This document shows positions 43,417 to 59,301 of a stretch of DNA of 64,000 nucleotides, one piece after another. The stretch covers positions 3,433-67,432 of the forward strand of contig JABIAL010000016.1 of NCBI GenBank assembly GCA_018653315.1. Direction: 5' to 3'. A program made the position numbers and the translations under genes. The notes below the pieces were generated by a model. It saw nothing but the letters and a program-made list of their open reading frames with translations. It had not been told where the DNA came from and did no database searches. This DNA comes from a bacterium. Its GTDB lineage: Bacteria > Patescibacteriota > Patescibacteriia > UBA1558 > GWA2-36-10. Numbering within the stretch: the stretch's first letter is position 1; each line of letters starts with the position of its first letter.

Positions 43417-45393
43417 ATGGAAGAACAAAAAAACACTCAATCAAACATGGACATAAAAACTCCAAATGATAGTGCGTCTATCAACACTAACGCAATAAAC
43501 AATGAACAACCTGAAGAAAGTTCTCCTAAGAAAAAGAAGTTTTTCTTTTGGTTTATAATTGCTTTAGGTCTTTTTGCTTTAATCCAAAGTATTTTGGTAT
43601 TTGGTAAAGATGATAATAAAGACGAAGTAGTAGTTGATGAACCACAGCAAACAATTATTGATGAATTAGTTATTGATGATGAAGAAGAAGAACCTGAAGA
43701 TCAATTAACTTATAACACTTATATTCCTCCAGCCCCTCTGGTGCCTGTAGAGGAAGAGATTGATTTAGTAGAATTAACAATAGATGATTGTATTGAAGCA
43801 GATATTGTTATGGCTGGTATTAATCCAGATGATATTAACGATGCTGTAGTAGAACAGTGTTTAATTCTTTGGGAGGACTTACAAGCTTTATTAGAAGATA
43901 TTGAAGATGAAGAAGTAGCTACTACTACACCTACCACCACACCAAGAAGAGGCGGTGGTTCAAGTGGGGGTGGATCTGTTACATTATCTGATGATGCTAG
44001 TTTAAATTTATTTAAGGTAGATGTCATAGATGCTTTAGTGCTTCCTGATTTAGAAGTAGAAAGTTTTGATGACGCAGGAGCTAAATTATTTGTAGATAAT
44101 CACCTCTGTTCAGATATCGAACTTAGTGCTAATCCTTGTGTTGATCAACTTAAACAGTTAGTAGGGATTTTCTTACAACCAACCGATGAAGATATTACTT
44201 ATATTAAAGTCGAGATTGAAAGACTTAGTCCATTGCCAGTAGAATTAGTTTGGGAAAATGAAGAGATTCTTCAATTGCATGAAAAAAATATTTTAGTTGG
44301 TGATATTATCATGGTAACAGTTATCGCTGAAGATGCTACTAGTCAAAATTTATATAAGCTAAGTATTTTAGGTGATGTTGTAAATGACGCTAGCTTAAGT
44401 CTATTTAATGTTGATTTCATTGATGTTTTACCTTTGGCAGGGTTACAGGTAAATAATTTCAGTGAAGAGGGAGCTAATCTGATTTTGTCAGATTATCAGT
44501 GTGAACGCTCAAGTTTTTCAAATGTCAGATGTATAAGTGAAAAAGATAATTTAACAGGTATTTTTATTGAGCCACGTGATCCAGACTTTAGTTATATTAA
44601 AGTAGAGATCAAAAGACTTAGTTTAATGCCGGTAGAGTTAGTTTGGGAAAACGAAGAGATTCTTCAATTACACACAGAAGATATTTTATTAGGTGATGTA
44701 ATTAGAGTGACTGTAGTTTCTGAAGATGGTAAGACTACAAGTTTATATAAAGTTAACATTAGCGATGAATCATTCATTGATACTTCTCTGAATAAATTTG
44801 CTATTGATAAATATGATATTCTGTCTCTAGAAAATTTAGAAATTAAAGATAAATCTGGCGCTGTATTATATATTAATGATGCAGAAGATTGTCCAGATTG
44901 GTCTGATCATGTTTGCACTACAACTAAATTGAAAGGTTTAATTGTCTCAGCTACTCAATCTGACGTGAGCTATATAGGCGTTTCGCTATTACGTGATAAA
45001 GTTTGGAAACTTTGGGAGAATGACGAAATTCATTTATTAGCCCAAGAGGAATTCTTTATTGATGACGTAGTCTTGGTAAGAGTTGTTTCCAAAAATGCTT
45101 GGCACGAAGCAATGTATAAAGTTACTATCAAAGCAGCTCCAACTGAAATAGAAGAAGTTGTAATCACACCAACTGAGCTCAAGCTTGTAAAAATCAAGCC
45201 TAGATTAGTTGGCGGTGGAGGATCTGCTCCAGCAAAGATAGAAAAAGAGCCAATTAATATTGAGCCAATTCAAATTACACCGGTAGAAAAGATTAAGAAA
45301 GTTCAGGAAAAACCAGTTATAGAAGTAAAAGAAGTGACTAGCATTGATCCAGTGATTGAAGTCAAGAAAACCGAACCAGCTATTATTGAATAA
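43417..45393 (+). CDS. large acidic membrane-anchored repeat protein (surface/adhesin-like), paralog A
   Basis: 658 aa. N-terminal TM anchor (FFFWFIIALGLFALIQSILVF), conserved LTIDDCIEADIVMAGINPDDINDA..QCLILWEDLQ block, Thr/Pro/Gly linker TTTPTTTPRRGGGSSGGGS, four modules of about 120 aa (...F.VD.ID.LP..GL.V..F...GA.L.......C......C...L.GIF..P.D.D.SYIKVEI.R.S..PVELVWENEEI.QLH.....GD.I.VTV.AEDG....LYK..I), and a K/E/P-rich C-terminus. Confidence 0.7.
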   Translation: MEEQKNTQSNMDIKTPNDSASINTNAINNEQPEESSPKKKKFFFWFIIALGLFALIQSILVFGKDDNKDEVVVDEPQQTIIDELVIDDEEEEPEDQLTYNTYIPPAPLVPVEEEIDLVELTIDDCIEADIVMAGINPDDINDAVVEQCLILWEDLQALLEDIEDEEVATTTPTTTPRRGGGSSGGGSVTLSDDASLNLFKVDVIDALVLPDLEVESFDDAGAKLFVDNHLCSDIELSANPCVDQLKQLVGIFLQPTDEDITYIKVEIERLSPLPVELVWENEEILQLHEKNILVGDIIMVTVIAEDATSQNLYKLSILGDVVNDASLSLFNVDFIDVLPLAGLQVNNFSEEGANLILSDYQCERSSFSNVRCISEKDNLTGIFIEPRDPDFSYIKVEIKRLSLMPVELVWENEEILQLHTEDILLGDVIRVTVVSEDGKTTSLYKVNISDESFIDTSLNKFAIDKYDILSLENLEIKDKSGAVLYINDAEDCPDWSDHVCTTTKLKGLIVSATQSDVSYIGVSLLRDKVWKLWENDEIHLLAQEEFFIDDVVLVRVVSKNAWHEAMYKVTIKAAPTEIEEVVITPTELKLVKIKPRLVGGGGSAPAKIEKEPINIEPIQITPVEKIKKVQEKPVIEVKEVTSIDPVIEVKKTEPAIIE

Positions 45394-45509: not shown

Positions 45510-48314
45510 ATGTCCAATGAACAATTTGCTGGCCAAAACGTCGGCTTTAAACAAAAGTTCACTAAGCGTCGAGTTGTAGTCACAATGTTATTTATGCTTG
45601 GTGCTTATGCAGCTATCCAAAGTGTAGTTAGTTTTGGTAAAACTGAAGACACAGTAGTTGAGCCATCTGATAAAGTGGTAAAACAAGTTGAGGTTAAGAA
45701 AGACATGCTTCATGTTGTTCCTCCAGCTCCAACAAAATTAAAAACTGACAATGAAGGTGATATTGATGTGGAATCTTACGGTTTATTTGGTTACGTGCCA
45801 AATGATAATGTTCCACTGGTCCCAGTTCCAGTAGTTGAAGTTGAAGAAGAGGAATTAGATTTAACAGACTTGACTGTTGATGACTGCATAGAAGCTGATA
45901 TTGTCATGGCTAGTATAAATCCTGAAGACATCAATGATGCTATGGTAGCGCAATGTTTGATTTTATGGGAAGATTTGCAAGATTTATTAGATGAAGTTGA
46001 TGAAGAAGTAGCTACAACAACTCCTACTACTACACCGAGAAGAGGCGGTGGTGGAGGCGGGGGTGGAACTGATAATCCTCCTGAAGAAGATCCGCTATCT
46101 ACTAATTCCGATTTAGGTATTTTCGATGTAGACAAAATAAACATTTTGCCATTTGATGGTTTGCGAGTAGCAGATTTTGATGAAGACGGCGCAACTTTGT
46201 TAGTAGACGATTATTTTTGTAAAGAAACTGAATTAACTGCTTGGCCTTGTTTTCATCCGGGTAAGCCTCTGATGGGTGTTTTTCTGGCTGCTGCTGATGA
46301 AAAGAGTAGTTATGCTAGAGTTGAGATCGAACGTAATAATCCTTTATTGTTAGAATATAGCCCAGCTAGAGTGTGGGAAAATGATGAAATCTCTAAGTTA
46401 GCAAAGGAGGAAATTTTGCCAGGCGACATCATTCGAGTGACTGCCATTGCCGAAGATGGTGTTAGTCAGAGCTTATTTAAATTAAACGTCGATGCCTTAG
46501 CCAGTGATGCTAATTTGAATATTTTTGATGTTGATTTTGTTGATGTGCTACCATTTGATGGTTTGCAAGTTAAAAAATTTGATGATCCAGGTGCCATCTT
46601 AAACATGTATAATTATCTCTGCGATCCATCTGTAGTTGGTCCAGAGCCTTGCGTGGGTGGTATTGGCGAGAGAATTACCTTGAGCGGCCTAATGCTACAA
46701 GCTAGAGATAGAAATATTAGCCATAGTAAGGTTGAAATTGAACGTAGAAGTCCATTTTCTTTTTGGGACACACCAATAAAAATCTGGGAAGGCAAAGAGA
46801 TCGACCAATTAAGAGATATGCAGATTTGGCCAGACGATATCATTAGAGTAACAATTGTTGCTGAAAATGGTCGGGCAGAAAATTTATTTAAATTGAGCGT
46901 TGTCAATCAAACAGATAATGCTGATTTAAGCCAATTTAATATTGGTACCTCTCCAGTTCTAGAGTGGCCAAATATTGAAGTGAAAGATATTAATAGTTTA
47001 GGTGCTATAGCTAATATTTGTCCAGAAAATATAAATGGTGAAGCAAGTCCTTATTTTACTTGTATTACTACTTTGGATGGAGTGTTTATCACACCAGAAG
47101 ATGAAGATGTTAGAAATATTACAGTTTCTATTTATCATGAAAATCTAATCAGTAAAGCTATATTTGTACCAGAAAAGTTTGACTTCTTTGAAGGTGAAGA
47201 AGAAATAAAACAATTAGAAAAATATCAACTTGTGCAAGACGATATGATTTTTGTGCAAGTTACAGCTGAAGATGGAGCCACAATCAAAAATTATAAAATT
47301 CAAGTTATTGAAGGTGATTATACGGAGAATGTAAGTTTGGCAGCATTTACCGTAGGTGGTATTAATGCTTTAGCCTTACCAAATGTAGAAATAGCTGGTT
47401 GGTATGACCAAGGAGCAGTAATTGAACTTTGTAATCCAACTCGTGCTACAGCTGATTGCATAGAAAGTTTAGAAGGCATTATCGTAAAAACAGAAGAAGA
47501 TACAATGTATCGCGGTGTTTATATTGAAAGAGATGGAGATGCAAATTCATTAATTTGGGTCAATGATCAAATAGATGGACTTGTAAACTTTGAAGTTTTA
47601 CCAAACGATATTATTCGTGTAGTGGTTGTAGCTAGCAATGGTAAGGCATTGGGCTTTTATAAGGTATCTGTTATATATCAAACTAGAAATGATATATTAT
47701 TATCTGAATTTACAATAGATACACATAATGCTTTGTTATTACCAGATGTAAAGATAGATAATCTTTCTGATGCTGGCGCTACATTGTTTGTACCAACAGA
47801 AGAAGTTATCCCTTGTTCATCTAATAGAGCCGAAGGTTGCACCACCATTGATCTCACTGGTATTTATGCTGCGCAGGCACTCAAAGATGTGGATATTACA
47901 GTTTATACTTTTCATGATTATTGGTCTACTTGGGTAGGTGAAGAGGGCATAGGTCAATTAGTGGATCATGAATTAGCCATTGGTGATATGGTTGCTGTGC
48001 TACTAAAGGAAGAGAATGGTTTACAGCAAACTTTATATAAAGTTACCATTGCAGAAAAGTCAGTAGAGCCTCTAGTGATCAAGAAATTCTATCCTAGCAA
48101 ATTTATTGGCGGTGGCGGATCAGTAGCACCTGTAAAGAAAAAGCCTTTAGAAGAAACAGATTTTTCTAATATTCAAGATCAGGAATTGAAAAAAGAAGAG
48201 GTTGTTAATGAGATAGAAGTGGAAAAAACTCCAGAACCACAACCTGATACTGATGATGTTAAAATAATCAAAGAGCCTATTGTTGTGAAAGAAACAGAGG
48301 AAACAGAGGAATAA
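45510..48314 (+). CDS. large acidic membrane-anchored repeat protein, paralog B
   Basis: 934 aa with the same architecture as paralog A: TM anchor, LTVDDCIEADIVMASINPEDINDA block, TTTPTTTPRRGGGGGGGGT linker, at least six modules, and an IGGGGS...KKKP C-terminal tail. Confidence 0.7.
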   Translation: MSNEQFAGQNVGFKQKFTKRRVVVTMLFMLGAYAAIQSVVSFGKTEDTVVEPSDKVVKQVEVKKDMLHVVPPAPTKLKTDNEGDIDVESYGLFGYVPNDNVPLVPVPVVEVEEEELDLTDLTVDDCIEADIVMASINPEDINDAMVAQCLILWEDLQDLLDEVDEEVATTTPTTTPRRGGGGGGGGTDNPPEEDPLSTNSDLGIFDVDKINILPFDGLRVADFDEDGATLLVDDYFCKETELTAWPCFHPGKPLMGVFLAAADEKSSYARVEIERNNPLLLEYSPARVWENDEISKLAKEEILPGDIIRVTAIAEDGVSQSLFKLNVDALASDANLNIFDVDFVDVLPFDGLQVKKFDDPGAILNMYNYLCDPSVVGPEPCVGGIGERITLSGLMLQARDRNISHSKVEIERRSPFSFWDTPIKIWEGKEIDQLRDMQIWPDDIIRVTIVAENGRAENLFKLSVVNQTDNADLSQFNIGTSPVLEWPNIEVKDINSLGAIANICPENINGEASPYFTCITTLDGVFITPEDEDVRNITVSIYHENLISKAIFVPEKFDFFEGEEEIKQLEKYQLVQDDMIFVQVTAEDGATIKNYKIQVIEGDYTENVSLAAFTVGGINALALPNVEIAGWYDQGAVIELCNPTRATADCIESLEGIIVKTEEDTMYRGVYIERDGDANSLIWVNDQIDGLVNFEVLPNDIIRVVVVASNGKALGFYKVSVIYQTRNDILLSEFTIDTHNALLLPDVKIDNLSDAGATLFVPTEEVIPCSSNRAEGCTTIDLTGIYAAQALKDVDITVYTFHDYWSTWVGEEGIGQLVDHELAIGDMVAVLLKEENGLQQTLYKVTIAEKSVEPLVIKKFYPSKFIGGGGSVAPVKKKPLEETDFSNIQDQELKKEEVVNEIEVEKTPEPQPDTDDVKIIKEPIVVKETEETEE

Positions 48315-48325
48315 ATTATATTTAG

Positions 48326-48360
48326 AGCCGGCTCCCGCAATGCGGGAGCCGGTCTTTTGT
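48326..48360 (+). terminator. strong GC hairpin terminator
   Basis: gagccggctcccgc-aat-gcgggagccggtc followed by ttttgtttg. Confidence 0.75.
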
Positions 48361-48395
48361 TTGACTCTTCGACTACGCTCAGAGTCTGCGCTAGC

Positions 48396-48425
48396 TTGAC
48401 AAAATTTAGCATTCCTGTTTATATA
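48396..48425 (+). promoter_or_regulatory. sigma70 promoter (TTGACA-18-TATATA) for the structured leader/sRNA and tRNA-Asn
   Basis: ttgaca at 48396-48401 and tatata at 48420-48425. Confidence 0.5.
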
Positions 48426-48431
48426 TAGATA

Positions 48432-48548
48432 TGACTTACCAAAAATACAATAATTCTAATAATAATGATAATAACCGATTGATAGACCGGTAATTTTTGG
48501 TATTTAATTTAAATTGCTAAGCCGGTCTTAAAATGATCGGTTTTTTTG
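48432..48548 (+). ncRNA. candidate structured leader or small RNA immediately upstream of tRNA-Asn
   Basis: A 9-bp long-range stem (accaaaaat / atttttggt) encloses an AT-rich loop. It is followed by the hairpin ccggtc-ttaaaat-gatcgg plus ttttttt, which ends 8 nt before the tRNA. Confidence 0.3.
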
Positions 48549-48555
48549 TATTTAT

Positions 48556-48630
48556 TGCCAGGTAGTTCAATGGTAGAACGCTGCACTGTTAATGCAGATG
48601 TTACAGGTTCGAGTCCTGTCCTGGCAGCCA
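48556..48630 (+). tRNA. tRNA-Asn (anticodon GUU), CCA encoded
   Basis: Acceptor tgccagg/cctggca; anticodon stem ctgca/tgcag with loop ctGTTaa; T-loop ttcgagt; discriminator g. Confidence 0.85.
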
Positions 48631-48713
48631 TCCTTCGACTCCGCTCAGGATGACAAAATTCCTTGTATTTTTCTCTGATTTTAGGTATTATTTAATAAAT
48701 TATTATAAAAATT

Positions 48714-50003
48714 ATGGAACAAGTTTCAATCAAAGATTTGTCACAGTTTGTTGATCAAGAAGTAGAAATTAAAGCTTGGGTATCCAACTTTCGTTCATCT
48801 GGAAAGATTGCCTTTTGGCAATTAAGAGACGGGGCTGGTTTTGCTCAGGCTATTTTAAATTCAACAGATTTAGATGAAGTAAAATGGCAGGAAGCACAAA
48901 AAGTCACTTTAGAGACTTCTGTTAAAATTATTGGTAAAGTTTCTAAACATCCCAAAAAAGAAGAATATGAAATTCAAGTTACAGATTTTGAATTTTATCA
49001 GATAGCAGAGGAGTATCCTATTGCTAAAAAAGACCATGGTGTAGATTTTCTTTTAGATAATAGACATTTATGGTTACGTTCTTCCAAGCAATGGGCAATT
49101 CAAAGAGTACGTAATACTTTGATTTCAGCTACTTATGATTTTTTTAGAGAAAATGATTTTATTAAAATTGATTCTCCAATTTTGACGCCAAATGCTTGTG
49201 AAGGCACAACTGAATTATTTGAGTTAGATTATTTTGATAATACTGCTTATTTATCTCAAAGTGGTCAGCTTTATTTAGAAGCTGCAATTTTTGCTCACAA
49301 GAATGTTTTTGATTTCGGTCCAGTGTTTAGAGCAGAAAAATCTAAGACTCGTCGTCATTTGACTGAGTTTTGGATGATGGATGCAGAAATGGCTTTTATT
49401 GATTTAGCAGAAAACTTGCAAGTGCAAGAAGATTTAGTTCGCTTTATGGTGACGGCTGTTTTAGAGAAGAATAAAGCTGAACTTGAAATTTTAGAAAGAG
49501 ATATTAAACCTTTAGAAAATATTATTAAGCCTTTTTATAAAATAACATACACTGAAGCGGTAAATAAATTACAAGAATTAGGTTCAGATATTAAAGATGG
49601 AGCTGACCTGGGAGCTGATGATGAAACAAAATTAACCCAAGAATATGATAACCCAATTTTTATTACTCATTATCCCGCAGCTATTAAGTCTTTTTATATG
49701 AAAAGAGACGAGCAAGATGAAACAAAGGCTTTGTGTGCCGATTTATTAGCTCCTGAAGGTTATGGAGAGATTAGCGGTGGTTCACAAAGAGAAGATGATT
49801 ATAATGTTTTATTGAAGCGCATTAAAGAACATAAATTATCCGTTGAAGATTTTCAATGGTATTTAGATTTACGTAAATATGGTTCTGTGCCACATGGAGG
49901 ATTTGGCTTTGGTTTAGAGCGTATTGTTACTTGGGTTTGTGGTATTCAACATGTTAGAGAAACCATTCCATTTCCAAGAACAATTTATAGAATTAAACCT
50001 TAG
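48714..50003 (+). CDS. asnS: asparagine--tRNA ligase
   Basis: Class IIb aaRS with OB fold. Motif 2 FRAEKSKTRRHLTEFWMMDAEMAF is AsnRS-type. Motif 3 GGFGFGLERIV. 429 aa. It lies directly after tRNA-Asn. Confidence 0.85.
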   Translation: MEQVSIKDLSQFVDQEVEIKAWVSNFRSSGKIAFWQLRDGAGFAQAILNSTDLDEVKWQEAQKVTLETSVKIIGKVSKHPKKEEYEIQVTDFEFYQIAEEYPIAKKDHGVDFLLDNRHLWLRSSKQWAIQRVRNTLISATYDFFRENDFIKIDSPILTPNACEGTTELFELDYFDNTAYLSQSGQLYLEAAIFAHKNVFDFGPVFRAEKSKTRRHLTEFWMMDAEMAFIDLAENLQVQEDLVRFMVTAVLEKNKAELEILERDIKPLENIIKPFYKITYTEAVNKLQELGSDIKDGADLGADDETKLTQEYDNPIFITHYPAAIKSFYMKRDEQDETKALCADLLAPEGYGEISGGSQREDDYNVLLKRIKEHKLSVEDFQWYLDLRKYGSVPHGGFGFGLERIVTWVCGIQHVRETIPFPRTIYRIKP

Positions 50004-50126: not shown

Positions 50127-50203
50127 GCCGATGTAGCTCAGCTGGCTAGAGCAATTCTCTCGTAAAGAATAGGTCACCAGTTCGATTCTGGTCATCGGCT
50201 CCA
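50127..50203 (+). tRNA. tRNA-Thr (anticodon CGU), CCA encoded
   Basis: Acceptor gccgatg/catcggc; anticodon stem attct/agaat with loop ctCGTaa; T-loop ttcgatt. Confidence 0.85.
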
Positions 50204-50233: not shown

Positions 50234-51646
50234 ATGAAAAATTACATTAAAGAAACAGTAGATTTAAAAGCAGGCGCTGAAGTCAATTTAAAAGGCTGGG
50301 TGCATGTTTACCGTCGGATGGGTAAAATGGGTTTTATAGAACTGAGAGATTCTACTGGAATCATCCAGGTTGTTTGTGTGCCAGGTGAAATGACAGTTGG
50401 TGCAGATATTTTGGATGATGTTCGTCCAGAGTTTGTCGTCAGCATCAAAGGCGTGATCCAAGAACGCGGGGCAAAACAACAACGCGAAGATCAATTAACT
50501 GGTAAGATAGAAATTTTAGCTAAAGAATTATCAGTTATTTCTGAATCTGAAACGCCACCATTTGAAATCGTCAATGAAGATAGACAAGCCAATGAAGAGC
50601 TTAGATTGAAACATAGATATTTAGATTTACGTCATGAAAGAATGGCTAATAATATCAAGATGAGACACAAAGTCATTCATTTTTTTAGAAATTATTTGAC
50701 AGATAATGGTTTCACAGAAGTTCAAACTCCTATTTTGTCCAAGTCTACACCAGAGGGCGCTAGAGATTATTTAGTACCATCTCGTTTACATAAAGGTAGT
50801 TTTTTTGCTTTACCACAAGCTCCGCAGCAATACAAGCAGCTTTTGATGATCGCTGGCTTAGAAAAATATTTTCAAGTTGCTCCATGTTTTAGAGATGAAG
50901 ATGCAAGGGCAGATAGAAGTCCGGGTGAGTTTTATCAATTAGATATGGAAATGTCTTTCATGACCCAGGAAGAAATAATGGATTTAACTGAAGACATGTT
51001 TACTACTATGGTAGAAAAATTATTTCCAGAAAAGAAAATAACGCAAAAACCTTGGCCTAGATTAGATTATGATGATGTGATGAAGGAGTATAGTACTGAT
51101 AAGCCTGATTTGAGAAAAGATAAAAATGATCCAAATGAATTAGCCTTTGCTTGGACTATAAATTTTCCATTATTTGTAAAACAAACCGATGAAGATAAAT
51201 TTATCGGTGCTGGAGATACTTGGGGACCATCTCATAATATGTTTACTGCTCCAAAAGAAGAGGATGTAAAATTATTAGATAAAAGTCCTGAAAAAGTAAA
51301 ATCCTATCAACATGATTTAGTTTTAAACGGATTTGAGGTTGGTGGAGGAGCTGTTCGTATTCATGATATCAAATTGCAAGAAAAGATTTGGGATTTAATT
51401 GGTTTCTCAGAAGAGCAAAAAAAACAATTTCAACATTATCTGGAAGCTTTTAAATATGGTGTGCCACCACACGGCGGCATTGCTCCCGGTATAGATAGAT
51501 TGTTAATGGTTTTATTGGCTGAGAAAAATCTTAAAGAAGTAACCGCCTTTCCTTTGACTTCTGATGGACATGATCCTTTGATGGATTCACCAAGTGAAGT
51601 TTCTAAAGAACAGCTAGATGAATTAGGTTTAAGTTTGAAGAAATAA
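50234..51646 (+). CDS. aspS: aspartate--tRNA ligase (short form lacking the bacterial GAD insertion)
   Basis: Motif 2 CFRDEDARADRSPGEFYQLDMEMSF is AspRS-type. Motif 3 GGIAPGIDRLLM. 470 aa. Confidence 0.85.
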   Translation: MKNYIKETVDLKAGAEVNLKGWVHVYRRMGKMGFIELRDSTGIIQVVCVPGEMTVGADILDDVRPEFVVSIKGVIQERGAKQQREDQLTGKIEILAKELSVISESETPPFEIVNEDRQANEELRLKHRYLDLRHERMANNIKMRHKVIHFFRNYLTDNGFTEVQTPILSKSTPEGARDYLVPSRLHKGSFFALPQAPQQYKQLLMIAGLEKYFQVAPCFRDEDARADRSPGEFYQLDMEMSFMTQEEIMDLTEDMFTTMVEKLFPEKKITQKPWPRLDYDDVMKEYSTDKPDLRKDKNDPNELAFAWTINFPLFVKQTDEDKFIGAGDTWGPSHNMFTAPKEEDVKLLDKSPEKVKSYQHDLVLNGFEVGGGAVRIHDIKLQEKIWDLIGFSEEQKKQFQHYLEAFKYGVPPHGGIAPGIDRLLMVLLAEKNLKEVTAFPLTSDGHDPLMDSPSEVSKEQLDELGLSLKK

Positions 51647-58712: not shown

Positions 58713-58713
58713 A

Positions 58714-58819
58714 TGGGTCTGGTATCCTTCGGCGTTGCTCAGGATTACCGGACAATAATTTTTATATGGGTCTGGTATCCTTCGGCGTTGCTCAGGATTA
58801 CCGGACAATAATTTTTATA
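58714..58819 (+). repeat. two tandem 53-nt direct repeats whose 5' ends mimic the tRNA-Tyr 5' end (pseudo-tRNA fragments plus duplicated leader/promoter)
   Basis: tgggtctggtatccttcggcgttgctcaggattaccggacaataatttttata occurs at 58714 and 58767. A third phase begins at 58820 with the genuine tRNA-Tyr (gggtcggtaccgaagcgg). Confidence 0.7.
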
Positions 58820-58820
58820 T

Positions 58821-59049: not shown

Positions 59050-59301
59050 ATGAAGAAATACTATATTTATCTAGCTAGATGTAATGATCAAACCCTCTAT
59101 ACGGGATACACAAGTAATTTAATACAAAGAGAGGCTAAGCACAATGCAGGAGAAGGTGCGAAATACACCAGGGCTAGACGTCCAATACGAATTATTTATT
59201 CTGAGAAATTTAATACAATAAGCGAGGCCATGATAAGAGAATGCCAAATAAAGAGCTGGACAAAATTGAAGAAAGAAAAATTAATTAAGAAACAACCATA
59301 A
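59050..59301 (+). CDS. GIY-YIG nuclease-family protein (UPF0213-like, 83 aa)
   Basis: YYIYLARCNDQTLYTGYTSNLIQREAKHN contains the GIY...YIG motifs and the catalytic Arg/Glu pattern. Confidence 0.8.
   Translation: MKKYYIYLARCNDQTLYTGYTSNLIQREAKHNAGEGAKYTRARRPIRIIYSEKFNTISEAMIRECQIKSWTKLKKEKLIKKQP

What the first reader, a model, noticed from the sequence alone, without database searches (positions are those of the whole stretch)
48396..48548. Promoter-driven structured RNA of about 115 nt ending in a terminator-like hairpin 8 nt before tRNA-Asn
TTGACA-18-TATATA (48396-48425) would start transcription at about 48432. The RNA folds into a long-range 9-bp helix (accaaaaat...atttttggt) around an AT-rich region. 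It is followed by ccggtc-ttaaaat-gatcgg plus U7 (48523-48547), and tRNA-Asn begins at 48556 with no intervening promoter. This is either (i) an independent sRNA with partial read-through producing the tRNA, or (ii) a tRNA leader carrying an attenuator. A terminator-like structure directly upstream of a tRNA is unusual. It is too short for a T-box, and the downstream gene is a tRNA rather than an aaRS.
Basis: partly seen in the sequence, partly recalled or inferred. Interest (0 to 1): 0.5.

Follow-up and report, generated by a model that had tools for sequence, protein, structure and literature searches.

The report
Asparagine leader-peptide attenuator before tRNA-Asn
The "structured RNA" most likely works as a classical ribosome-sensed transcription attenuator: a 20-codon mini-gene with seven asparagine codons sits in front of a terminator and would set how much tRNA-Asn (and probably asparaginyl-tRNA synthetase) this candidate-phyla bacterium makes, and I found no earlier report of such a switch on a tRNA gene.

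Summary
TTGACA (48396-48401), a -10-like TATATA, a strongly folding ~117-nt RNA (z = -3.4), a hairpin plus U7 ending at 48547, and tRNA-Asn at 48556 are all present.

ATG 48431 to TAA 48493 encodes MTYQKYNNSNNNDNNRLIDR*, with 7 Asn in 9 codons, the only such stretch in six frames of the window. Downstream lie tRNA-Asn(GTT) and then asnS.

Ten distinct Patescibacteria sequences keep the same design:
- TTGACA, exactly 29 nt, then ATG, which suggests a leaderless transcript.
- An Asn-rich ORF with in-frame indels and AAT/AAC swaps.
- A stop codon inside or touching a GACCGG segment (II) that can pair with the terminator's 5' arm (III).
- A terminator, then tRNA-Asn.

In one lineage (L022) the unit is separated from asnS, so it travels with the tRNA.

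Best reading: a ribosome-mediated attenuator that senses Asn-tRNAAsn. Not shown: translation, termination or any response to asparagine. Covariation is not significant, and equilibrium folding gives a clear antiterminated state in only some members.

Rfam has no match, and my literature searches found no Asn leader and no attenuator in front of a tRNA gene. I rate it a new variant of a known kind.

The parts
48396..48401 (+). -35 hexamer TTGACA of the leader promoter
   Evidence: Sequence read. It is invariant in all 10 related leaders, while the DNA just upstream cannot be aligned.
48419..48425 (+). -10 region (TTATAT or TATATA, spacer 17 or 18)
   Evidence: The divergent relative L022 has TTGACA-17-TATTAT-6 nt-ATG. 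The distance from -35 to ATG is exactly 29 nt in 10 of 10 sequences. From this I infer that transcription starts at or next to A48431, giving a leaderless mRNA. No transcript data exist.
48431..48493 (+). Leader ORF, 20 codons plus stop: MTYQKYNNSNNNDNNRLIDR*
   Evidence: The ORF is conserved in 10 distinct sequences, with in-frame 3-nt indels. Variable sites fall mostly at codon position 3 (7, against 4 at position 1 and 1 at position 2), and Asn codons change only between AAT and AAC.
48449..48475 (+). Regulatory codon run: 7 Asn codons in 9 (AAT AAT TCT AAT AAT AAT GAT AAT AAC)
   Evidence: This is the only 9-codon stretch with at least 7 Asn in all six frames of the 64-kb window. One other stretch reaches 6 of 9.
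48437..48448 (+). Segment I (UACCAAAAAUAC), the 5' arm of the long-range helix, lying inside codons 3-6
   Evidence: Pairs with 48490-48502. The I:II duplex is -8.8 to -10.3 kcal/mol in the nine close relatives but only -4.4 in L022, so it is not universally conserved.
48473..48481 (+). Segment 1 (AACCGAUUG), complementary to terminator arm IV
   Evidence: Forms a 9-bp pairing with 48534-48542 in the MFE fold. The duplex is -7.8 to -9.8 kcal/mol in the close clade and -1.9 in L022. CGATT is invariant in all 11 copies. Its role is uncertain.
48484..48502 (+). Segment II (AGACCGGUAAUUUUUGGUA), the antiterminator 5' arm; it contains the stop codon UAA at 48491-48493
   Evidence: The II:III duplex is -14.6 to -19.3 kcal/mol in all 10 sequences, with 6-9 contiguous pairs preserved. 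The last Asn codon starts 12-13 nt upstream of the GACCGG core in every sequence.
48515..48528 (+). Segment III (UGCUAAGCCGGUCU), shared arm that pairs either with II (antiterminator) or with IV (terminator)
48534..48547 (+). Segment IV (UGAUCGG) plus the U7 tract; with III it forms the intrinsic terminator (stem 48519-48543)
   Evidence: Terminator scan. The III:IV duplex is -12.1 to -19.4 kcal/mol in all 10 sequences. With a ribosome modelled on the stop codon, the III:IV pairing probability is 1.0 in every sequence tested.
48556..48630 (+). tRNA-Asn (GTT), the first regulated gene, 8 nt after the U tract
   Evidence: ARAGORN and Rfam RF00005 at 74.7 bits. Of the 11 distinct tRNA-Asn sequences found in the fetched Patescibacteria loci, 10 are preceded by an intact Asn-rich leader and one (L096) by a decayed copy.
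48663..48691 (+). asnS's own promoter-like site: TTGTAT, 17 nt, TATTAT
   Evidence: The same cTTGTAAaat...TTTTAGGTATTAT motif precedes asnS in most of the ~20 closest loci, including those with no tRNA-Asn there. asnS therefore does not depend only on the attenuator.
48714..50003 (+). asnS (asparagine--tRNA ligase, 429 aa), probably co-transcribed by read-through
   Evidence: NF003037 at 558 bits and TIGR00457 at 484 bits. No terminator-like site was found between the tRNA and asnS.

Best explanation
This is a ribosome-mediated (leader-peptide) transcription attenuator that senses the supply of Asn-tRNAAsn. It controls read-through into the tRNA-Asn gene and, in this genome, on into asnS.

Proposed sequence of events:
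1. Transcription starts from the conserved TTGACA promoter at, or within a base or two of, the A of ATG 48431. The leader ORF is therefore translated from a leaderless mRNA.
2. When Asn-tRNAAsn is plentiful, the ribosome runs through the seven Asn codons to UAA 48491-48493 and sits on segment II (48484-48502). Segment III (48515-48528) is then free to pair with IV (48534-48542). Hairpin plus U7 stops RNA polymerase at about 48547, 8 nt before the tRNA.
3. When Asn-tRNAAsn is scarce, the ribosome stalls in the run. With its A site on the last Asn codons, its leading edge stops about 12 nt short of the GACCGG core of II while covering segment 1. II pairs with III as soon as III is transcribed, IV stays single-stranded, and the polymerase reads into tRNA-Asn and asnS.
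4. Without translation, either I:II plus III:IV, or the nested 1:IV/II:III hairpin, ends at the U tract. The default state is therefore termination.

What is shown: the ORF, its conservation, the codon run, the terminator, the competing pairings and their geometry. What is inferred: the transcription start, translation of the ORF, stalling, termination and regulation.
For: 1. The ORF holds 7 Asn in 9 codons, unique in six frames of the window. It lies directly upstream of the cognate tRNA and asnS.
2. Ten distinct sequences from Patescibacteria genomes and metagenomes keep the whole design: window, L001, L002, L005, L007, L081, L092, L087, L120 and the divergent L022.
3. The window-type leader is identical in 3 independent samples. 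The L022-type leader is identical in 6 further metagenome contigs. This makes an assembly artefact unlikely.
4. Coding signature: TTGACA-29 nt-ATG in 10 of 10 sequences; 3-nt in-frame indels; variable sites 7/4/1 at codon positions 3/1/2; Asn codons vary only AAT<->AAC. L022 keeps the residues M-T-Y-Q-K through synonymous TAC>TAT and AAA>AAG changes that weaken helix I:II.
5. Geometry: the last Asn codon starts 12-13 nt before the II core in every sequence. The stop codon lies inside II or abuts it.
6. II:III and III:IV are both strong and nearly equal in energy in all ten sequences, with 96-97% of cells paired. Each helix has one compensatory pair: G-C / G.U / A-U for II:III and A-U / G.U / U-A for III:IV.
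7. A modelled ribosome at the stop codon gives terminator probability 1.0 in all sequences tested. A ribosome at the last 2-4 Asn/Asp codons leaves IV free with probability 0.85-0.98 in the window, L001 and L022.
8. The unit travels with the tRNA. In L022 it lies 900 nt from asnS with an opposite-strand ORF between them. asnS has its own conserved promoter everywhere.
9. Only 5 of 45 genes in the window have a Shine-Dalgarno-like motif, so the missing SD is normal for this organism.
10. Precedent exists for leaderless leader peptides attenuating aaRS genes in Streptomyces and Deinococcus (PMC8079986, PMC4007540, PMC1262725).
Against: - There is no transcript, ribosome or reporter data of any kind.
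- Covariation is not statistically significant. The observed scores are reached by 236 of 500 and 87 of 500 shuffles, and most pairs are invariant.
- All ten sequences come from a narrow clade. Nine of them are about 85% identical in the leader.
- Equilibrium folding of L002, L005 and L007 still favours the terminator when II is free. For these, antitermination has to rest on co-transcriptional kinetics.
- In the close clade, a stall at the first three to five Asn codons leaves segment 1 free to pair with IV. That builds a long hairpin abutting the U tract. By this model only stalls late in the run would relieve termination, which is an odd use of seven codons.
- If segment I may pair with II around a stalled ribosome, the model predicts termination in almost every state.
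- One relative (L096) carries tRNA-Asn behind a decayed leader with no start codon or promoter. The leader is therefore not indispensable everywhere.
- Since asnS has its own promoter, the gain from raising only tRNA-Asn when asparagine itself is limiting is unclear.
Confidence: 0.75

Rival explanations
1. An independent small transcript (an sRNA, or a small mRNA for an Asn-rich peptide) with its own promoter and terminator. The tRNA would be made by constitutive leakage through that terminator, with no sensing of asparagine.
For: The promoter and terminator delimit a ~117-nt unit that folds unusually well. Equilibrium folding predicts termination in most states for several relatives. Covariation for the switch is not significant.
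Against: - It does not explain why the codon run is cognate to the tRNA immediately downstream in 10 of 10 intact cases.
- It does not explain why the stop codon always lies on the arm that competes with the terminator, or why the last Asn codon is always 12-13 nt from that arm.
- The tRNA has no promoter of its own in the 8 nt after the U tract.
- nhmmer finds no other copy of the element that could suggest a trans-acting family.
Confidence: 0.12
2. The short ORF encodes a functional Asn-rich peptide whose sequence matters. Conservation would reflect the peptide, and its position next to tRNA-Asn would be incidental or serve only to supply the tRNA.
For: The N-terminal MxYQK and the C-terminal R-[FL]-x-D-R are conserved at the residue level. 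They survive synonymous changes in L022.
Against: - The ORF is only 18-20 residues with no hydrophobic or Cys-rich character.
- No processing or export genes are adjacent.
- The C-terminal codons coincide with the structured segments 1 and II, which would constrain them anyway.
- The variable part is the spacing and count of Asn codons, not their presence.
Confidence: 0.05
3. A protein- or tRNA-binding attenuator (T-box-like or TRAP-like), in which the AAU/AAC repeats are bound directly and the ORF is not translated.
For: Repeated triplets are the binding signal in TRAP-type systems. The output module, a terminator with a competing antiterminator, would be the same.
Against: - No T-box or any other Rfam cis-regulatory family matches, even at E <= 10.
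- The RNA is about 117 nt, with no Stem I or T-box bulge.
- The fixed -35-to-ATG spacing, the in-frame indels and the placement of the stop codon are all unexplained without translation.
Confidence: 0.04
4. A chance ORF and chance hairpins in an AT-rich spacer; the only real feature would be a terminator and a promoter.
For: The genome is 33% G+C, so AAT triplets are common. The CCGG cores are palindromic, so any two of them can pair.
Against: The 7-of-9 Asn stretch is unique among roughly 128,000 codon positions. The ORF and its frame are conserved in ten sequences, including one whose flanking leader sequence has diverged.
Confidence: 0.03

Closest known systems
Leaderless leader-peptide attenuators of aminoacyl-tRNA synthetase genes in Actinobacteria and Deinococcus (leuS, trpS, alaS and thrS in Streptomyces; cysS in Deinococcus deserti): PMC8079986, PMC1262725, PMC4007540
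   Same: - The short ORF starts at the transcript's 5' end with no Shine-Dalgarno sequence.
- It is enriched in codons cognate to the downstream translation-apparatus gene.
- It is followed by a hairpin and a U-rich stretch.
- The logic is the same: slow decoding leads to read-through.
   Different: - The first downstream gene here is the cognate tRNA itself, not a protein gene.
- The amino acid is asparagine. My searches found no report of an Asn leader.
- The host is a Patescibacteria (CPR) organism.
- The sequence is unrelated to those leaders.
E. coli pheST attenuator (pheM leader peptide)
   Same: A ribosome-mediated attenuator in which a run of cognate codons controls a gene of the charging machinery rather than a biosynthetic operon. 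This description rests on my own knowledge and on the citation in PMC1262725.
   Different: The pheM leader is SD-led rather than leaderless. Its target is the synthetase only, its codons are Phe, and no tRNA gene lies in the attenuated unit.
Classical his and trp operon attenuators (Rfam His_leader, Trp_leader and related families)
   Same: Both have overlapping segments (I:II, II:III, III:IV), a run of regulatory codons (seven in his), and a stop codon placed so that a terminating ribosome masks the antiterminator. The default state without translation is termination.
   Different: - No Rfam leader family matches this element.
- The regulatory codons lie between I and II rather than within segment 1.
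- An extra segment (1) can pair with IV.
- The regulated genes are not biosynthetic.
T-box riboswitch
   Same: It responds to the same physiological signal, the charging state of one tRNA species. It has the same output, a terminator competing with an antiterminator. It is typically found before aaRS genes, including asnS in Firmicutes (the asnS point rests on my own knowledge).
   Different: The sensor is different. A T-box binds uncharged tRNA directly with a Stem I of about 200 nt and a T-box bulge. Here the sensor would be the translating ribosome. No RF00230 match was found.

Membership tests
Ribosome-mediated (leader-peptide) transcription attenuator | A short ORF in the 5' leader, enriched in codons cognate to the regulated function | tested here: met
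   The ORF has 20 codons, with 7 Asn in a 9-codon run, unique in the window. It is conserved in 10 distinct sequences, with 6-7 Asn in the best 9-codon stretch of each.
Ribosome-mediated (leader-peptide) transcription attenuator | An intrinsic terminator between the leader ORF and the regulated gene | tested here: met
   The stem lies at 48519-48543 and is followed by U7. It is present in all 10 relatives, at -12 to -19 kcal/mol.
Ribosome-mediated (leader-peptide) transcription attenuator | An alternative (antiterminator) pairing that uses the terminator's 5' arm | tested here: inconclusive
   Pairing potential is conserved: II:III is -14.6 to -19.3 kcal/mol and 96% of cells are paired. Only one compensatory pair exists, and 236 of 500 shuffles reach the observed score.
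Ribosome-mediated (leader-peptide) transcription attenuator | Geometry such that a ribosome at the stop codon masks the antiterminator arm, while a ribosome stalled on the regulatory codons leaves it free | tested here: met
   The stop codon lies inside II or abuts it. The last Asn codon starts 12-13 nt before the II core in 10 of 10 sequences. A modelled ribosome at the stop gives terminator probability 1.0. Late-Asn stalls give a free IV in the window, L001 and L022 but not in L002, L005 or L007 at equilibrium.
Ribosome-mediated (leader-peptide) transcription attenuator | The leader ORF is translated | not testable with these tools
   The evidence is indirect only: fixed TTGACA-29 nt-ATG spacing, in-frame indels, third-position bias, and the fact that most genes in the window lack an SD motif.
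Ribosome-mediated (leader-peptide) transcription attenuator | Read-through rises when the cognate charged tRNA is limiting | not testable with these tools
   This needs Term-seq, a reporter, or an in vitro coupled system.
T-box riboswitch (RF00230) | Stem I with a specifier loop, the conserved T-box sequence and antiterminator bulge; a match to the Rfam model | tested here: not met
   There is no hit at the gathering score and none at E <= 10 on 48300-48720. The leader is only about 117 nt.
Rfam amino-acid operon leader families (Trp, His, Leu, Thr, Phe leaders and others) | Sequence and structure similarity to the curated covariance models | tested here: not met
   No such family appears among the matches at E <= 10. 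The best non-tRNA hits are unrelated sRNA models far below their gathering scores.
Independent trans-acting sRNA | Own promoter and terminator, plus a function exerted on other transcripts | tested here: inconclusive
   A promoter and a terminator are present. Trans function cannot be tested here. No other copies or paralogues were found in 0.9 Mb of related sequence.

The most novel reading that the evidence does not exclude
This would be the first described leader-peptide attenuator whose direct target is the cognate tRNA gene. It would form a closed feedback loop, a 'tRNA-stat'. The ribosome's speed on Asn codons would set the synthesis of tRNA-Asn and, where asnS follows, of AsnRS. Genome-reduced Patescibacteria are generally thought to lack most amino-acid biosynthesis (my own knowledge; PMC6851277 abstract), which would leave the tRNA and the synthetase as the only levers. 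If it holds here, similar cognate-codon leaders in front of other tRNA genes may have gone unrecognised in poorly studied phyla.
Probability: 0.55. Interest if true: 0.75.

Novelty: new variant of a known kind. Interest (0 to 1): 0.62.

Why it matters
Classical attenuation is a textbook mechanism, but it is known for biosynthetic operons and a few synthetase genes. Four things would be new here.

- **A new kind of target.** A tRNA gene as the attenuated product would mean the charged-tRNA pool regulates the tRNA's own synthesis.
- **A new specificity.** Asparagine would join the list of amino acids sensed by leader peptides.
- **A first look at CPR regulation.** This would be one of the first concrete cis-regulatory mechanisms proposed for Candidate Phyla Radiation bacteria. 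They cannot be cultured easily, and their regulation is almost unknown.
- **It is testable.** The element is small, about 150 bp including the promoter, with clear predictions. It can be tested directly in a heterologous reporter or a reconstituted transcription-translation system.

It also has a practical use for annotation. The ~120-nt gap before tRNA-Asn in these genomes is not empty spacer, and it should not be called an sRNA.

Tried and rejected
- **Rfam.** A whole-window search at gathering score and a permissive search on 48300-48720 found only the tRNA. No T-box, no leader family and no credible sRNA appeared.
- **Other tRNAs.** I looked for cognate-codon leaders upstream of the other five tRNAs in the window and of all 51 tRNAs in the loci held at that point. 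Only tRNA-Asn has one. The tRNA-Lys hit is the end of a real gene.
- **Metagenome pattern scan for the segment 1/II core**. Seven of 12 hits are true leaders of the same narrow clade and five are chance matches. No more distant members were found.
- **Viral-contig scan with a looser pattern**. All 16 hits are chance matches.
- **AsnRS-guided sampling**. This added L120, the decayed L096 copy and identical repeats. It also showed that relatives with 86-88% identical AsnRS (L098, L100) have no tRNA-Asn next to asnS.
- **nhmmer with the leader alignment against all held sequence**. No further copies were found.
- **Covariation counts**. Not significant; most pairs are invariant.
- **Equilibrium folding with ribosome masks**.
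  - It supports termination with the ribosome at the stop codon.
  - It gives a clean antiterminated state only in the window, L001 and L022.
  - It shows that the result depends on whether segment I may pair across a stalled ribosome.
- **An internal promoter for the tRNA.** I considered TTGATA 48479, 16 nt, TGgTATTTA. I rejected it because it is not conserved in the relatives, and its transcript would still contain the terminator without the antiterminator arm.
- **Literature searches**. They found no Asn leader peptide, no attenuator before a tRNA gene and nothing on attenuation in CPR. The supplementary table of Deinococcus leader peptides was not available.

Full report
**1. What is there**

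The interval sits between a 934-aa ORF (45510-48314) and tRNA-Asn. The ORF matches no NCBIfam family and has its own strong terminator at 48327-48353. tRNA-Asn(GTT) lies at 48556-48630.

After the tRNA come three more genes:
- asnS at 48714-50003 (NF003037, 558 bits).
- tRNA-Thr(CGT) at 50127-50203.
- aspS at 50234-51646.

- TTGACA at 48396-48401 and TATATA at 48420-48425.
- ACCAAAAAT at 48438-48446, complementary to ATTTTTGGT at 48493-48501.
- The hairpin CCGGTC / GATCGG at 48522-48540, followed by U7 to 48547.

The 117-nt RNA folds at -24.1 kcal/mol, against -14.6 +/- 2.8 for shuffles (z = -3.4).

The window is 33% G+C. Its AsnRS relatives are all Patescibacteria (CPR) MAGs (Nomurabacteria, Parcubacteria, Komeilibacteria, Staskawiczbacteria), apart from a few records deposited as Gammaproteobacteria or Deltaproteobacteria.

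**2. The missed feature**

Read in frame from ATG 48431, the "AT-rich region" is an ORF: MTYQKYNNSNNNDNNRLIDR*, with its stop at 48491-48493. Seven of nine consecutive codons (48449-48475) are Asn. No other 9-codon stretch in any of the six frames of the 64-kb window reaches 7 Asn, and only one other reaches 6.

The ATG lies 29 nt after the -35 hexamer. That places it about 6-7 nt after the -10, where transcription should start.

**3. Comparative evidence**

A scan of one genome per GTDB species with the AsnRS protein returned 80 loci. Only the closest have tRNA-Asn upstream of asnS: L001 (91%), L002 (86%), L005 (81%) and L007 (80%). All four carry a leader ORF of the form M[SG]YQK[YH]NN..NNDNNRF[LM]DR.

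Other searches added further distinct copies:
- A metagenome pattern scan added L081, L086/L092 and L087.
- Look-ups of AsnRS homologues added L120.

A scan of all 51 tRNAs in the held sequence found one more tRNA-Asn, in L022 (Komeilibacteria, AsnRS 75%). It has a clearly diverged leader: TTGACA-17-TATTAT-6 nt-ATG, encoding MTYQKFATFNNNNNNRLL*. Its stop codon abuts GACCGG, and a terminator AAUCCGGU...ACCGGAUUUUUU follows.

In L022 the tRNA lies 900 nt from asnS, with an opposite-strand ORF between them. Relatives with 86-88% identical AsnRS (L098, L100) have asnS without the tRNA. asnS also keeps its own promoter-like motif (TTGTAA/T, 17 nt, TATTAT) in most of the ~20 closest loci, including the window at 48663-48691. 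The leader therefore belongs to the tRNA, not to asnS.

The window-type leader is identical in three independent samples. The L022-type leader is identical in six further metagenome contigs. This makes an assembly artefact unlikely.

One copy, L096, has decayed. It has no start codon or promoter, carries a 22-nt insertion, and has an rve transposase next door.

No tRNA other than tRNA-Asn has a cognate-codon leader. nhmmer finds no further copies of the leader.

**4. Signs that the ORF is read as codons**

- TTGACA, exactly 29 nt, then ATG holds in 10 of 10 sequences, although the 29 nt themselves vary.
- Length differences are 3-nt, in-frame indels.
- In the close clade, variable sites fall 7/4/1 at codon positions 3/1/2. 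Asn codons change only between AAT and AAC, and the stop varies TAA/TAG.
- L022 keeps M-T-Y-Q-K through synonymous TAC>TAT and AAA>AAG changes that weaken helix I:II.
- Only 5 of 45 long ORFs in the window have a Shine-Dalgarno-like motif, so its absence here is unremarkable.
- Leaderless leader peptides have been described, from mapped transcription starts, in Streptomyces and Deinococcus (PMC8079986, PMC4007540).

**5. The switch**

Four segments matter:
- II: 48484-48502, core GACCGG.
- III: 48515-48528, core CCGGUC.
- IV: 48534-48542, followed by the U tract.
- I: 48437-48448, upstream in the ORF.

III can pair with IV (terminator) or with II (antiterminator). Both duplexes are strong and nearly equal in every sequence: II:III is -14.6 to -19.3 and III:IV is -12.1 to -19.4 kcal/mol. 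Each is the basis of the MFE in some relatives.

The last Asn codon starts 12-13 nt before the II core in all ten sequences, which is about the reach of a ribosome's leading edge. The stop codon lies inside II or abuts it.

Folding with a ribosome modelled as a mask gave these results:

| Ribosome position | Result |
|---|---|
| On the stop codon | Terminator probability 1.0 in all six sequences tested |
| On the last 2-4 Asn/Asp codons | IV free with probability 0.85-0.98 in the window, L001 and L022 |
| On the last 2-4 Asn/Asp codons, in L002, L005, L007 | Equilibrium still prefers III:IV; antitermination there must depend on II:III forming first during transcription |

**6. Two complications**

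- In the close clade, a further segment 1 (48473-48481, AACCGAUUG) pairs with IV. When the ribosome is absent or stalled early in the run, the predicted fold is a long nested hairpin (1:IV around II:III) that still abuts the U tract. On this model only stalls late in the run relieve termination. This pairing is weak in L022, so I cannot say whether it is functional.
- If segment I is allowed to pair with II across a stalled ribosome, the model predicts termination almost everywhere. I regard that pairing as sterically doubtful, but I cannot exclude it.

**7. Strength of structural evidence**

Pairing is preserved in 96-97% of cells for both helices. Each helix has one compensatory pair:
- II:III shows G-C, G.U, A-U.
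- III:IV shows A-U, G.U, U-A.

Most pairs never vary, and the shuffle control is not significant (236/500 and 87/500). The case therefore rests on the cognate codon run, reading-frame conservation, geometry and mutually exclusive pairing. It does not rest on covariation.

**8. Comparison with known systems**

Mechanistically this matches the classical leader-peptide attenuator. Its closest relatives in design are the leaderless leaders before aaRS genes in Actinobacteria and Deinococcus, and the E. coli pheST attenuator (PMC1262725, PMC8079986, PMC4007540).

It is not a member of any Rfam leader family, and it is not a T-box. It differs from known attenuators in amino acid (Asn), in lineage (CPR) and in having the cognate tRNA gene as the first regulated product.

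Nine full-text searches found no report of an Asn leader peptide or of an attenuator preceding a tRNA gene. The library is incomplete, so this is absence of evidence only.

**9. Verdict**

- Most likely reading (0.75): an Asn-tRNAAsn-sensing, ribosome-mediated attenuator governing tRNA-Asn and, by read-through, asnS.
- Novelty: a new variant of a known kind.
- Interest: moderate to high (0.62). The mechanism is classical, but the target and the lineage are unexpected, and the element is small enough to test directly.

Noticed in passing
window 48367-48382 and 48633-48648 (also 45416, 59467, 58727, 58780, 21653, 24441): A small GC-rich repeat, CTTCGACTNCGCTCAG, occurs 8 times in the window against 0.37 expected. 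Two perfect copies bracket the promoter-leader-tRNA-Asn unit, and each is followed by TGACAAAATT (48397 and 48651). L086 has the downstream copy, while L002 and L007 have none. It could be a miniature repeat element, or the trace of an insertion of the tRNA unit.
   Followed up: partly
window 48663-48691; L003, L006, L009-L020 just upstream of asnS: asnS has its own conserved promoter-like motif (cTTGTAAaat, 17 nt, TATTAT within TTTTAGGTATTATTTAA) in most of the ~20 closest loci, whether or not tRNA-Asn lies upstream.
   Followed up: partly
L022 2154-2218 and about 2265-2312; L096 826-1707; L121 164-994: Downstream of the functional tRNA-Asn in L022 lies a 5'-truncated second tRNA-Asn copy. 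It resembles the window-type tRNA more than L022's own, and another fragment follows it. rve-family transposases lie next to tRNA-Asn in L096 and L121. tRNA-Asn appears to be a hot spot for integration and rearrangement in this group.
   Followed up: partly
L001 2813-2864 (same as L091): This relative has an extra ~55-nt insert between the attenuator terminator and tRNA-Asn. The insert carries a second terminator-like hairpin (CCCGCtttGCGGG followed by a T-rich run).
   Followed up: no
window about 58713-58820, upstream of tRNA-Tyr: A perfect tandem duplication of a ~53-nt unit (catgggtctggtatccttcggcgttgctcaggattaccggacaataatttttatat) lies directly before tRNA-Tyr.
   Followed up: no
window 43417-45393 and 45510-48314: Two adjacent large paralogous ORFs (658 and 934 aa) share an N-terminal region, a TTTPTTTPRRGGG linker and repeated ~120-aa modules. 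The 934-aa protein has no NCBIfam hit. They may be surface proteins.
   Followed up: no
window, gene starts (for example 38016): Only 5 of 45 long ORFs have a Shine-Dalgarno-like motif. At least one (38016) has TATAAT, 6 nt, then ATG, the same geometry as the leader ORF. Leaderless mRNAs may be common in this organism.
   Followed up: partly
window 50127-50203; 28 of the fetched loci: tRNA-Thr(CGT) is conserved between asnS and aspS across many Patescibacteria loci. In the window it is preceded by a GC-rich structured spacer and has no obvious promoter.
   Followed up: no
window 48493-48504 versus 48678-48689: The stretch just after the leader stop codon (ATTTTTGGTATT) closely resembles the -10 region of the asnS promoter (ATTTTAGGTATT) (D4). 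Together with TTGATA at 48479 it forms a weak extended -10 promoter-like site in the window only. It is not conserved in relatives.
   Followed up: partly
window about 59050-59300 (ORF ending just before tRNA-Thr GGT); L101 9783-10497: Small ORFs flank tRNA-Tyr and tRNA-Thr(GGT). In the syntenic locus L101 the corresponding genes carry PF01541 (GIY-YIG nuclease domain); the window's own ORF was not scanned.
   Followed up: no
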